NCBI RefSeq assembly: GCF_050320075.1
Contig: NZ_CP190018.1
Length of the DNA: 64,000 bases
Reading direction: 5' to 3' (one strand)
Origin: Escherichia coli
GTDB taxonomy: Bacteria > Pseudomonadota > Gammaproteobacteria > Enterobacterales > Enterobacteriaceae
This document shows, piece by piece, positions 21,001-24,000 of this stretch (positions are counted from its first letter, which is position 1; the number at the start of each line of letters is the position of its first letter). The position numbers are program-made.

Positions 21001-24000
21001 CTGTAAGCCGCCGCCATCTACCACCATCGTCCCCGCGACAGAAGAGGAGAGTACGTGGGTAGTGGAAACCGGCATCCCGGTATAACTCGCCAGGCCGATA
21101 GACACTGCCGCAGTCATCTGGGCAGACATCCCCTGAGCGTAGGTCATGCCTTTCTTACCGATTTTCTCACCGATAGTCGTTGCCACACGACGCCAGCCAA
21201 TCATCGTACCGATACCTAACGCCAGCGCGACCGCCATGATGATCCACACCGGCGCATACTCGATGGTGCTAAGCATATCGGATTTCAGTTTCTTCAACAG
21301 GCGCTGATCGTCAGCACTCACGCCAGGCATCTTCACCACTTTGTCGATAGTGTCAGAAACGCACAGCATAATGCGGCGCATCTGGCTACGTTGATCAAGC
21401 GACAGCTTGTCGTAGCTTTCCACATCGGTAGTCAACATGCCTTTCAGGCGGTTGAGCGCGTTAATGGTATTCGACGGATGGCAATGGAACTCCGCAGGTT
21501 GCGTTGCGCCAGCTTCCGGAGCCGGTACTAACTGATCAGCACCGGTAGCCTGTTTCAGCAGCGCAGGGTGCTGCTCAAAGTAAGCTTCCACGTTGTTGAT
21601 GGCATCACGGGTACGGGTGATTTCGTAGCCAGTGGCATTCATGTTCACCACGAAGCCTGCTGGTGCGACGCCAATCAATACCAACATAACCAGACCAATG
21701 CCTTTCTGACCATCGTTCGCGCCGTGCGAAAACGCCACGCCGATAGCGGAAAGGATCAGCGCAATACGCGTCCAGAACGGCGGCTTTTTCTTGCCGTCTT
21801 TCTTTTCACGCTCCGCTGGGGTCAGGTGGATACGGGCGCGTTTCTTGGTGCCGCTCCAGTAGCGACGCAGCAAGAAAATCAGACCGCCAGCAAACACCAG
21901 GCCGACAATAGGGGAAACGATCAGAGAACCGAAAATACTTAATACTTTCGGGATATTGAGTGCATCCACCACTGACGTCCCGGTCATCAACGCATTGGTT
22001 AAACCAATCCCGATGATCGCGCCAATCAGCGTATGAGAGCTGGATGCAGGTAAACCAAAGTACCAGGTACCCAGGTTCCAGATAATCGCCGCCAGCAACA
22101 TAGAGAACACCATGGCAAGGCCATGAGACGATCCCATATTAAGCAGCAGATCCGTCGGCAGCATATGCACAATGGCATAGGCAACACTCAGACCACCCAG
22201 CAAAACACCCAAAAAGTTGAACACCGCCGCCATAACCACGGCGAGCTGAGAACGCATCGCGCGGGTATAGATAACGGTTGCCACGGCGTTGGCTGTGTCA
22301 TGGAAACCATTGATGGCTTCGTAGAACAGCACAAAAGCCAGTGCAAGCAATAATAACAGCCCGGTATGCAAATCCAGGCCAGCAAACAAATGTAGCATAG
22401 GACGTTACGCCATTTTGAGGACATGAACGCGGCGCATTATCAGTGACTTTCGCGGCGCGGGCAAAGTGAAATATAGACTTTTTTTGATTTGCCTCCTGTA
22501 TGGATTTCACTCAAAAAATAATTATCTTATATAATTCAGGTAAATACTTCCTTTTAGTAATATTGATGCTGGTGCGACCACTGAGGAATCTTTACAATTC
22601 ACGCCCGTTTTTTCTTAGAGGAGCGCAACGTGGAAAGGTTTGATGCCATTATTATAGGCGCTGGTGCGGTGGGTATGTTCTGTTCTGCGCTGGCAGGTCA
22701 GGCAGGACGCCGGGTTCTGCTGATCGATAATGGTAAAAAACCAGGGCGCAAAATCCTCATGTCTGGCGGTGGGCGCTGCAACTTTACCAATCTTTATGTC
22801 GAACCGGGCGCTTATCTGAGCCAGAATCCGCATTTTTGTAAGTCTGCACTCGCGCGTTTTACCCAGTGGGATTTCATTGATCTGGTCAATAAACACGGCA
22901 TCGCCTGGCACGAGAAAACGTTAGGGCAACTCTTCTGCGATGACTCCGCTCAGCAGATTGTCGACATGCTGGTGGATGAGTGCGAGAAGGGCAATGTGAC
23001 CTTCAGATTGCGTAGCGAAGTGCTGAGCGTGGAGAAGGATGATACAGGCTTCACGCTTGAACTGAACGGCATGACTGTCGGTTGCGAAAAGCTAGTCATC
23101 GCGACCGGTGGACTGTCAATGCCGGGGCTGGGCGCGTCGCCGTTTGGTTATAAGATTGCCGAACAATTTGGCCTCAACGTGCTGCCGACCCGCGCGGGTC
23201 TGGTGCCATTCACTCTGCATAAACCGTTGCTCGAAGAGTTACAGGTGCTGGCAGGCGTGGCGGTGCCTTCCGTGATTACCGCTGAAAACGGCACCGTTTT
23301 CCGTGAGAACTTACTCTTCACCCACCGCGGCTTATCTGGACCGGCGGTGTTGCAAATTTCCAGCTACTGGCAACCGGGTGAATTTGTCAGTATCAATCTG
23401 CTACCGGATGTGGACCTCGAAACCTTCCTGAATGAGCAGCGTAATGCACATCCGAATCAGAGCCTGAAAAACACACTGGCGGTTCATCTACCGAAGCGGT
23501 TGGTTGAACGTTTACAACAACTCGGGCAAATCCCGGATGTTTCGCTAAAACAGCTCAACGTGCGTGACCAACAGGCACTGATTAGCACATTGACCGACTG
23601 GCGCGTACAACCCAACGGCACTGAAGGCTATCGCACTGCCGAAGTGACGCTCGGCGGCGTGGACACCAACGAACTCTCTTCACGGACGATGGAAGCGCGC
23701 AAAGTGCCTGGGCTGTACTTCATCGGCGAAGTGATGGACGTCACCGGTTGGCTGGGGGGCTATAACTTCCAGTGGGCGTGGTCGAGTGCGTGGGCTTGTG
23801 CGCAGGATTTGATTGCATGTCCGAGGACAATAAAGTTGTACACAAAGCACTAAAGTTGTAACCATTCTCAAAAAACGACGCTAATGTTGTATACTTACTG
23901 AATGTGTGGTTATAGGGTTGGAGACTATAAAATACACATATAGGTACGTATCAATGTCGTTTTTAGGGTACGATCATGGCTAGGGGTAGGCGTCTCAAAT

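What the first reader, a model, noticed from the sequence alone, without database searches (positions are those of the whole stretch)
23812..23853. Element insertion rewrites the C-terminus of YhiN
The element end supplies 12 new codons and a stop (..LIACPRTIKLYTKH), replacing the native tail (..LIAAKSS) that is stranded at 50494-50505. Whether the altered flavoprotein remains functional is unknown. Insertion within a coding 3' end rather than downstream of it is worth noting for target-site recognition.
Basis: seen in the sequence. Interest (0 to 1): 0.3.

Follow-up and report, generated by a model that had tools for sequence, protein, structure and literature searches.

The report
Tn7-like island rewrites YhiN tail
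A known copper/silver-resistance transposon sits at its usual docking site in the last codons of the E. coli gene yhiN (rdsA), and one extra A at the junction in this rare lineage turns the usual 4-codon swap into an 11-residue, probably harmless, tail.

Summary
yhiN (22630-23853) reads out of host DNA at 23817/23818 into a mobile element and ends ...LIA-CPRTIKLYTKH*. That is 407 aa, with 11 new codons plus a stop, not 12. The native tail AKSS* is stranded at 50494-50508.

The element (23818-50487, 26,670 bp) is a decayed Tn6230-family Tn7-like transposon carrying sil/pco, at the published yhiN attachment site. About 650 of 5,426 complete E. coli genomes carry such an element there.

The long tail is not what this insertion normally does. 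In roughly 600 of those genomes the junction is ATTGC|TGTCC. That swaps AKSS for VRGQ and places a TAA from the first TnsB-binding repeat exactly at the native length of 400 aa. The window has one extra A (ATTGCA|TGTCC), seen in only 2 complete genomes. The extra A shifts the frame past that stop.

Insertion inside the coding 3' end follows from fixed spacing. In 38 metagenomic junctions, diverse Tn7-like ends sit 34-38 bp (mostly 35-36) after the conserved W-A-W codons. In shorter homologues that point lies just past the stop codon.

The rewritten residues lie beyond the Pfam domain and the last helix and are predicted to be disordered. Ordinary and already known in kind; low interest.

The parts
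22630..23853 (+). Chimeric yhiN (rdsA) ORF, 407 aa: host codons 1-396 plus 11 element-encoded codons and a stop
   Evidence: ORF list. Pfam HI0933_like PF03486 matches residues 5-392 and PF22780 matches 188-339. PGAP annotates the identical 1224-nt gene in two genomes.
23746..23781 (+). Conserved block coding GWLGGYNFQWAW; inferred recognition site of the element's TnsD/TniQ protein. The W-A-W codons are 23773-23781.
   Evidence: First and second codon positions are near-invariant across 29 non-redundant occupied yhiN homologues. Tn7-like ends lie 34-38 bp downstream of it in 37 of 38 metagenomic junctions. TnsD binding is inferred by analogy with Tn7/glmS and was not tested.
23812..23816 (+). 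Left copy of the canonical 5-bp target-site duplication ATTGC
   Evidence: The canonical genome L039 has ...ATTGC|TGTCC and ...ACACA|ATTGC.
23817..23817 (+). Extra A between the target duplication and the element end. It shifts the yhiN frame past the element's first TAA.
   Evidence: Alignment of the window with EC195, MS6193 and K-12. Only 2 complete genomes share it.
23818..23853 (+). Element-encoded tail CPRTIKLYTKH plus TAA
   Evidence: Residues 398-407 have pLDDT below 50.
23818..23891 (+). Right (tnsA-proximal) end of the Tn7-like element: terminal TGTCCGAG plus three TnsB-site-like repeats at 23827-23840, 23847-23860 and 23878-23891
   Evidence: Motif scan. 21 of 22 bases match the published Tn6230 IRL (PMC13049778).
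23976..24597 (+). tnsA remnant (207 codons), cut by IS1
   Evidence: Pfam Tn7_TnsA-like_N, E=7e-16. PGAP marks it 'missing C-terminus'. Intact tnsA is 280 aa.
24598..25365 (-). IS1 (768 bp). It replaces 9,213 bp of the element backbone: the tnsA 3' end, tnsB, tnsC, tnsD, two small genes and most of an AAA/TOPRIM ATPase.
   Evidence: IS1 ends read. Annotation. Deletion size measured against the intact EC7518 backbone.
25366..25508 (+). C-terminal remnant of the TOPRIM-domain ATPase gene
   Evidence: PGAP annotation of the identical sequence.
25677..47457 (.). Cargo: copM, silE, silSR, silCFBA, DUF411 gene, silP, DUF2933 gene, M23 peptidase gene, pcoABCDRSE
   Evidence: PGAP annotation of the 100%-identical genome.
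47614..50229 (-). ISCro1 (IS66 family) genes tnpA, tnpB and tnpC, inserted between pcoE and the left end
50433..50487 (-). Left end of the element: terminal TGTGTAGAG (read on the reverse complement) and TnsB-site-like repeats at 50465-50478 and 50433-50446
   Evidence: 19 of 22 bases match the published Tn6230 IRR.
50488..50492 (+). Right copy of the target-site duplication ATTGC. With the native A at 50493, the flanks are identical over 6 bp (ATTGCA).
50494..50508 (+). Stranded native yhiN tail: GCG AAG TCG TCC TGA (AKSS*)
   Evidence: compared with K-12.

Best explanation
The window holds an E. coli chromosome in which a Tn6230-family Tn7-like transposon carrying the sil/pco copper-silver resistance cargo is inserted at that family's dedicated attachment site, the 3' end of yhiN. 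yhiN is rdsA, the 23S rRNA U2449 dihydrouridine synthase.

Inferred mechanism, by analogy with Tn7 TnsD at glmS: the element's TnsD/TniQ protein recognises the conserved DNA that encodes GWLGGYNFQWAW. TnsABC then inserts the element right-end-first about 35 bp downstream. In enterobacteria YhiN has a six-residue C-terminal extension, so that point lies four codons before the stop.

The canonical event makes a 5-bp duplication ATTGC. It reads GC|T GTC CGA GGA CAA TAA, replacing AKSS* with VRGQ*. The stop comes from the first TnsB-binding repeat.

This lineage has one additional A between the duplication and the element end. The A came either from an aberrant 6-bp staggered joining (ATTGCA duplicated) or from a later 1-nt insertion. 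It moves the frame past that TAA to the next stop in the second repeat, giving CPRTIKLYTKH* and a 407-aa protein.

An IS1-associated 9.2-kb deletion has removed most of tnsA and all of tnsB, tnsC and tnsD, so the element is now immobile and the junction is frozen. The rewritten residues lie after the last helix and outside the conserved domain, so the enzyme is most likely still functional.
For: Shown:
- Exact break of host similarity at 23817/23818.
- Right and left ends with TGT...ACA termini and TnsB-like repeats, matching the published Tn6230 ends.
- TnsA domain next to the right end.
- Intact relatives with tnsABCD and a TniQ/TnsD-domain protein at the same site.
- Canonical TSD ATTGC and a 400-aa YhiN in L039.
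- Census: 651 genomes match the canonical 80-mer junction, and 33 of 40 evenly sampled rows are 100% identical. The window's junction is found in 2.
- The left-end junction is identical in canonical genomes.
- Same register in Enterobacter asburiae despite a different local sequence, GCCGA|TGTCC.
- 38 metagenomic junctions with diverse TnsA-encoding elements at 34-38 bp from W-A-W, 28 of them at 35-36, out of an allowed 25-45.
- The host stop precedes the element in 23 of 38 junctions, all in 392-395-aa homologues.
- The Pfam domain ends at residue 392 and PDB homologues align only to 393-394.
- AF2: last helix 377-395 and tail pLDDT below 50.
- Published yhiN att site and a laboratory transposition of Tn7/sil/pco into this locus.

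Inferred: TnsD binding to the W-A-W block, and retention of enzyme activity.
Against: - No TnsD footprint or transposition assay exists for this family. The 2024 review states that molecular details are unknown.
- The metagenome scan was anchored on TGGGCNTGG, so conservation of that 9-mer itself is imposed by the search.
- The origin of the extra A could not be resolved. The +A junction, the tnsA::IS1 junction and the flanking haplotype all occur in the same two complete genomes.
- Rare insertions elsewhere exist: EC7518 at +86 bp with TSD CTTGT, and L057, whose spacing after W-A-W is 28 bp against 36 bp for L066 in the same host sequence. Spacing is therefore not absolute.
- No functional data exist on any tail variant.
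Confidence: 0.88

Rival explanations
1. The extra A, and hence the 11-residue tail, is a sequencing or assembly error. The true junction would be the canonical one with a 400-aa YhiN.
For: Only 2 of about 650 occupied complete genomes show it. It is a single-base difference.
Against: It is present in YZLc1-3 (chicken, China) and Ec-U3 (human urine, Burkina Faso). It is also in the window's source, which differs from both by an A14V substitution and matches a third accession on a 5.23-Mb contig. The context GCATGT is not a homopolymer.
Confidence: 0.04
2. The window's junction is an independent insertion shifted by one base, with a normal 5-bp duplication (TTGCA).
For: The flanking chromosome haplotype differs by 1.4% from the nearest other occupied genome, so the insertion in this lineage may be independent.
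Against: A shifted 5-bp duplication predicts ...ACACA|TTGCA at the left end. The observed sequence is ...ACACA|ATTGCAGCG, identical to canonical genomes. Only a 6-bp duplication or a 1-nt insertion fits.
Confidence: 0.02
3. The element-encoded tail is a functional, selected modification of YhiN/RdsA. For example, it might alter the enzyme's activity, stability or partner binding to the element's benefit.
For: All enteric element types give a V-x-x-Q-stop tail of exactly the native length: VRGQ, VRRQ, VQRQ, VNRQ.
Against: - The stop and the Q codon come from GACAATAAAG. That motif is equally conserved in elements that insert after the host stop, where it is never translated.
- The tail residues lie beyond the domain and the last helix.
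- Native tails vary even among enterics: AKSS, SGD.
- The window's own tail is a frameshifted reading of TnsB sites.
Confidence: 0.06

Closest known systems
Tn6230 and the Tn7-like sil/pco island (Tn7/pco/sil of pMG101 and R478) at the yhiN attachment site
   Same: - Same end sequences: 21 of 22 and 19 of 22 bases match the published IRL and IRR.
- Same tnsA-first orientation and same sil/pco cargo.
- Same chromosomal locus between yhiN and yhiM.
   Different: - This copy has lost tnsB, tnsC and tnsD to an IS1 deletion and carries an ISCro1 insertion.
- It has an extra A at the right-end junction.
- The papers held here describe the site as 'between yhiN and yhiM'. They do not mention that the last four codons are replaced.
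Tn7 at attTn7 (glmS)
   Same: A TnsD/TniQ-type protein reads a conserved 3' coding segment of a housekeeping gene. Insertion is right-end-proximal, at a fixed offset, with a 5-bp duplication. The sequence at the insertion point itself is not conserved (own knowledge of Tn7; pattern seen here).
   Different: Tn7 lands about 25 bp after the glmS stop and leaves the protein untouched. Here the same logic lands four codons before the stop in enterobacteria, but after the stop in shorter homologues.
Tn6022/AbaR at comM
   Same: A Tn7-like element with a dedicated attachment site inside a coding sequence.
   Different: The comM insertion inactivates the gene. The yhiN insertion changes only a non-conserved tail.
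Engineered CAST right ends used as in-frame linkers (Walker et al. 2023, PMC10201428)
   Same: Transposon right-end 'scar' sequences are translated as a C-terminal extension. The wild-type VchCAST right end has stops in all three frames, as does this element: stops after 4, 11 and 14 element-derived codons.
   Different: That is deliberate engineering in a CRISPR-guided system. This is a natural by-product.

Membership tests
Tn7-like (heteromeric transposase) element, Tn6230 subfamily | Terminal 5'-TGT...ACA-3' ends with several TnsB-binding repeats, closely packed at the right end and more spread at the left | tested here: met
   The right end has repeats at element positions 10-23, 30-43 and 61-74. 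The left end has repeats at 10-23 and 42-55. The ends match the published Tn6230 IRL and IRR at 21 of 22 and 19 of 22 bases.
Tn7-like (heteromeric transposase) element, Tn6230 subfamily | tnsA next to the right end, reading inward | tested here: met
   The ORF at 23976-24597 matches Pfam Tn7_TnsA-like_N (E=7e-16). It is truncated by IS1.
Tn7-like (heteromeric transposase) element, Tn6230 subfamily | tnsB, tnsC and a tnsD/tniQ target selector present | tested here: not met
   Absent from the window because of a 9,213-bp deletion next to IS1. Present in otherwise collinear elements at the same site, and TnsD has TniQ and TnsD Pfam domains. The window copy is therefore a defective derivative, not an autonomous member.
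Tn7-like (heteromeric transposase) element, Tn6230 subfamily | 5-bp target-site duplication | tested here: inconclusive
   The window flanks are identical over 6 bp (ATTGCA). Canonical copies have ATTGC, and EC7518 has CTTGT.
Tn7-like (heteromeric transposase) element, Tn6230 subfamily | Site- and orientation-specific insertion at the yhiN attachment site | tested here: met
   About 650 of 5,426 complete genomes are occupied at the same point and in the same orientation. Enterobacter and metagenomic junctions agree. Literature.
Tn7-like (heteromeric transposase) element, Tn6230 subfamily | TnsD binding to the yhiN 3' coding DNA | not testable with these tools
   Only inferred, from fixed spacing and sequence conservation.
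YhiN/RdsA (BaiN/RdsA, HI0933-like flavoprotein) | HI0933-like Rossmann domain plus the barrel/H2TH insert domains | tested here: met
   PF03486 (E=1e-96, residues 5-392) and PF22780 (E=2e-50). PDB homologues 9x7q and 2gqf.
YhiN/RdsA (BaiN/RdsA, HI0933-like flavoprotein) | 23S rRNA U2449 dihydrouridine synthase activity | not testable with these tools
   Activity was assigned to E. coli YhiN in PMC11317573. No data exist for any tail variant.

The most novel reading that the evidence does not exclude
The right ends of yhiN-targeting Tn7-like elements act as a built-in 'prosthetic' C-terminus. Insertion in frame with the enterobacterial rdsA tail supplies V-x-x-Q plus a stop at exactly the native length, and this has been retained because it keeps the anchor gene functional. 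On this reading the window's +A allele is a natural frameshift of that device.
Probability: 0.08. Interest if true: 0.4.

Novelty: already known. Interest (0 to 1): 0.15.

Why it matters
Mostly as a clarification. The sil/pco island and its yhiN docking site are well known, but they are usually drawn as lying 'between yhiN and yhiM'.

[quoted passage not shown] About 12% of complete E. coli genomes carry this allele.

The fixed 35-36-bp spacing from the W-A-W codons, seen across very different elements and hosts, gives a concrete candidate recognition site. A 2024 review says the molecular details of this attachment site are unknown.

For annotation: 407-aa YhiN entries are a lineage-specific junction variant, not a new protein form.

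Tried and rejected
1. I tried to order the events (extra A versus loss of the transposase) by counting the tnsA::IS1 junction. It occurs only in the same two genomes as the +A junction, so the test was uninformative.
2. I looked for close chromosomal relatives with a canonical junction. The two +A genomes match the 12.78-kb flank at essentially 100%, with bit scores consistent with a single mismatch. The next occupied genome is 98.6% identical. The origin of the A is therefore not resolved.
3. A literature search for 6-bp duplications by Tn7-like elements returned nothing relevant.
4. Peters et al. 2014, the paper that defined Tn6230, is not held in the library. I cannot say whether it already noted the codon replacement.
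5. The genome-contig scan for the element ends gave mostly chance hits outside Enterobacteriaceae. Only Enterobacter asburiae gave a yhiN junction. The Pseudocitrobacter and Atlantibacter hits carry the Tn6230-type right end with non-yhiN flanks that are identical to each other.
6. I rejected a shifted 5-bp duplication, an assembly error and an adaptive tail; see the rival explanations.
7. I did not run a second structure prediction for the native or VRGQ tails, because the junction already lies beyond the last predicted helix.

Full report
**1. Observation.**

- The ORF at 22630-23853 (GTG start) encodes a 407-aa HI0933-like flavoprotein ending ...WACAQDLIA-CPRTIKLYTKH*.
- Island-free E. coli genomes align with the window only up to 23817.
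- K-12 yhiN is 400 aa and ends DLIAAKSS*.
- The missing codons GCG AAG TCG TCC TGA are at 50494-50508, directly after the other end of the inserted DNA.
The only slip is the count: 11 element codons (23818-23850) plus TAA (23851-23853), not 12 plus a stop.
- The stated refutation condition is not met, because the native stop lies beyond the insertion point.

**2. What the inserted DNA is.**

The insert is 23818-50487, 26,670 bp.

- It starts TGTCCGAGGACAATAAAGTTGT and ends ...ACAACTTTAATGTCTCTACACA.
- It has three TnsB-site-like repeats packed at the tnsA-proximal (right) end and two more widely spaced at the left end.
- The ends match the published Tn6230 IRL and IRR at 21 of 22 and 19 of 22 bases (PMC13049778).
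- The first gene is a TnsA endonuclease (Pfam).
- That gene is cut after codon 207 by an IS1 at 24598-25365.
- Beyond the IS1 lies only a TOPRIM remnant. Compared with the intact backbone in strain EC7518, 9,213 bp are missing. The missing stretch covers the rest of tnsA, tnsB, tnsC, tnsD, two small genes and most of an AAA/TOPRIM ATPase.
- The cargo is copM, silESRCFBA, silP and pcoABCDRSE. An ISCro1 lies between pcoE and the left end.

The window therefore holds a defective, immobilised copy of the well-known Tn7-like sil/pco island. The locus is the one the literature gives as the Tn6230 attachment site (PMC11406308 Table 1; PMC10121019). A laboratory transposition from pMG101 was also observed into this locus (PMC8417528).

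**3. The window's junction is atypical.**

An alignment with other occupied genomes shows the usual junction is one base shorter...GAT TTG ATT GC|T GTC CGA GGA CAA TAA. That reads LIA-VRGQ*, a 400-aa protein. PGAP annotates it as a normal 1,203-nt yhiN.

In strain 120899 the flanks are ...ATTGC|TGTCC and ...ACACA|ATTGC, a clean 5-bp duplication.

Census of 5,426 complete E. coli genomes:

| Query | Result |
|---|---|
| Canonical 80-nt junction | 651 genomes cover it |
| Same query, 40 evenly spaced rows | 33 are full-length at 100% identity (about 600 genomes) |
| Window's 80-nt junction | Matched exactly in 2 genomes: YZLc1-3 (chicken, China) and Ec-U3 (human urine, Burkina Faso) |
| Window's junction, the other 58 listed rows | All one base shorter |

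- Those two genomes also share the tnsA::IS1 junction and the flanking haplotype.
- The window's own protein differs from theirs by A14V. It matches a third accession on a 5.23-Mb contig.
- The extra A is thus real, but confined to one lineage.
- The left-end junction (ACACA|ATTGCAGCG) is identical to that of canonical genomes. This excludes a shifted 5-bp duplication.
- Two origins remain: a 6-bp duplication (ATTGCA) made at insertion, or a later 1-nt insertion. I could not separate these.
- The consequence is purely a matter of frame. The canonical frame meets TAA in the first TnsB repeat (GACAATAAAG) after 4 codons. The +1 frame runs to a TAA in the second repeat after 11 codons. The third frame stops after 14 element-derived codons.

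**4. Why the insertion is inside the coding 3' end.**

- In Enterobacter asburiae the same element sits at ...GCG CTG GCC GA|T GTC CGA GGA CAA TAA. This is the same codon register and the same distance from the W-A-W codons, although the duplicated pentamer is different.
- I scanned metagenome contigs for TGGGCNTGG, then 25-45 free bases, then a generic Tn7-like end (TGTNNNNNGACAATAAAGTT). The scan returned 38 junctions with many different end sequences.
- Where enough DNA was present, these elements carried a TnsA gene 64-293 nt inside the end.
- Spacing after W-A-W was 35 bp in 16 junctions, 36 in 12, 37 in 5, 34 in 3, 38 in 1 and 28 in 1. Every TGTCCGARG-type element was at 35 bp. The window is at 36 bp.
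- In 23 of the 38 junctions the host stop codon precedes the element by a few bases. Those yhiN homologues are 392-395 aa and end ten residues after W-A-W. The exception is the 401-aa ORF called in L072, whose C-terminus is the same.
- In enteric-type genes (...AWACAQ[DA]L..) the protein is six residues longer, so the same spacing lands inside the last codons. The stop is then supplied by the element, giving VRGQ*, VRRQ*, VQRQ* or VNRQ*.
- Upstream, the DNA coding LYFIGEV.DVTGWLGGYNFQWAW is conserved at first and second codon positions. The 35 bp between W-A-W and the insertion point are not conserved. The W-A-W 9-mer itself was fixed by the search.
- This is the Tn7/glmS arrangement, as I know it for Tn7: the target selector reads conserved coding DNA, and insertion occurs at a set offset where the sequence is free to vary.
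The intact elements do encode a TniQ/TnsD-domain protein.

**5. Consequence for the protein.**

YhiN is RdsA, the FAD enzyme that makes D2449 in 23S rRNA (PMC11317573).

- The junction follows residue 396.
- The Pfam Rossmann domain ends at residue 392.
- Solved homologues (9x7q, 2gqf) align only to residues 393-394.
- An AlphaFold2 model built on 20 homologues (mean pLDDT 81.7) ends its last helix at residue 395. It gives pLDDT below 50 for residues 398-407.
- Natural homologues lack residues 395-400 altogether.
- Native enteric tails differ, for example AKSS in E. coli and SGD in Citrobacter freundii.
- The VRGQ allele is carried by about 12% of complete E. coli genomes.

All of this argues that both the 4-residue swap and the 11-residue tail are tolerated. 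No activity data exist.

**6. Rivals.**

- Assembly error is unlikely, because three genomes carry the A.
- A shifted normal insertion is excluded by the left-end junction.
- An adaptive tail is unlikely. The GACAATAAAG that supplies Q-stop is equally conserved in elements that insert after the host stop, where it is never translated.

**7. Comparison and novelty.**

- The closest known things are Tn6230 and the Tn7/sil/pco island at yhiN (the same thing), Tn7 at glmS (the same logic) and Tn6022 at comM (intragenic but inactivating). Engineered CAST right-end linkers (PMC10201428) are a further parallel.
- The window copy fails the 'tnsBCD present' criterion, so it is a defective derivative of the family.
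- The element and its attachment site are already published, so nothing here is new in kind.
- What this work may add is modest. It gives the exact codon-level outcome, the fixed spacing across diverse elements and the likely recognition block. It also shows that the 407-aa form is a rare junction variant.
- Interest is low.

**8. Dead ends.**

The IS1-junction and flank-haplotype tests could not order the events. The 6-bp duplication literature search was empty. Peters et al. 2014 could not be read.

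Noticed in passing
window 22669-22671 (YhiN codon 14): The window's YhiN has a private A14V change in the GxGxxG FAD-binding motif (GAGAAG to GAGAVG), relative to the two otherwise identical genomes. The exact protein matches WP_427879725.1 on a single 5.23-Mb contig, so the window comes from a third genome of this lineage.
   Followed up: partly
L005 and L078 (E. coli EC7518, NZ_CP085183.1): The same sil/pco element, with intact tnsABCD, is inserted 86 bp further downstream (74 bp past an intact yhiN stop). It has a clean 5-bp duplication CTTGT, so this is a genuine non-canonical insertion site next to the attachment site.
   Followed up: partly
L004 (E. coli MS6193), L076, L064: Other Tn7-like element types with different ends (TGTGCAGCG.., TGTGAACCG..) occupy exactly the same point of E. 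coli-type yhiN. They give tails VQRQ* and VNRQ*. About 40 complete E. coli genomes fall in the 90-95% identity band that includes the MS6193-type end.
   Followed up: partly
L057 versus L066 (metagenome contigs): These have almost the same host yhiN-homologue 3' end and nearly the same element end, but insertion points 8 bp apart (spacing 28 versus 36). In L057 the host stop is removed and the ORF runs into the element.
   Followed up: no
window 50823-53034: yhiM is truncated by a second IS1 (transposase CDS 51235-51932). The neighbouring DUF4049 gene lacks its N-terminus, which suggests an IS1-associated deletion just outside the island.
   Followed up: no
window 47614-50229: An ISCro1 (IS66 family, tnpA-tnpB-tnpC) lies between pcoE and the left end of the element. 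Strain 120899 carries different IS66-family insertions in the same element.
   Followed up: no
E. coli genomes plasmid hits; L015, L035: 58 E. coli plasmid records carry the same right end without yhiN. Pseudocitrobacter and Atlantibacter contigs carry the Tn6230-type end (TGTCCGAAG) with non-yhiN flanking sequence that is identical in the two contigs.
   Followed up: no
PMC8417528: The pMG101 paper describes the J53 chromosomal insertion as 'between yhiN and yhiM' and as using the same CCCGC attTn7 site. The junctions examined here show a duplication of ATTGC inside the yhiN coding sequence instead.
   Followed up: no
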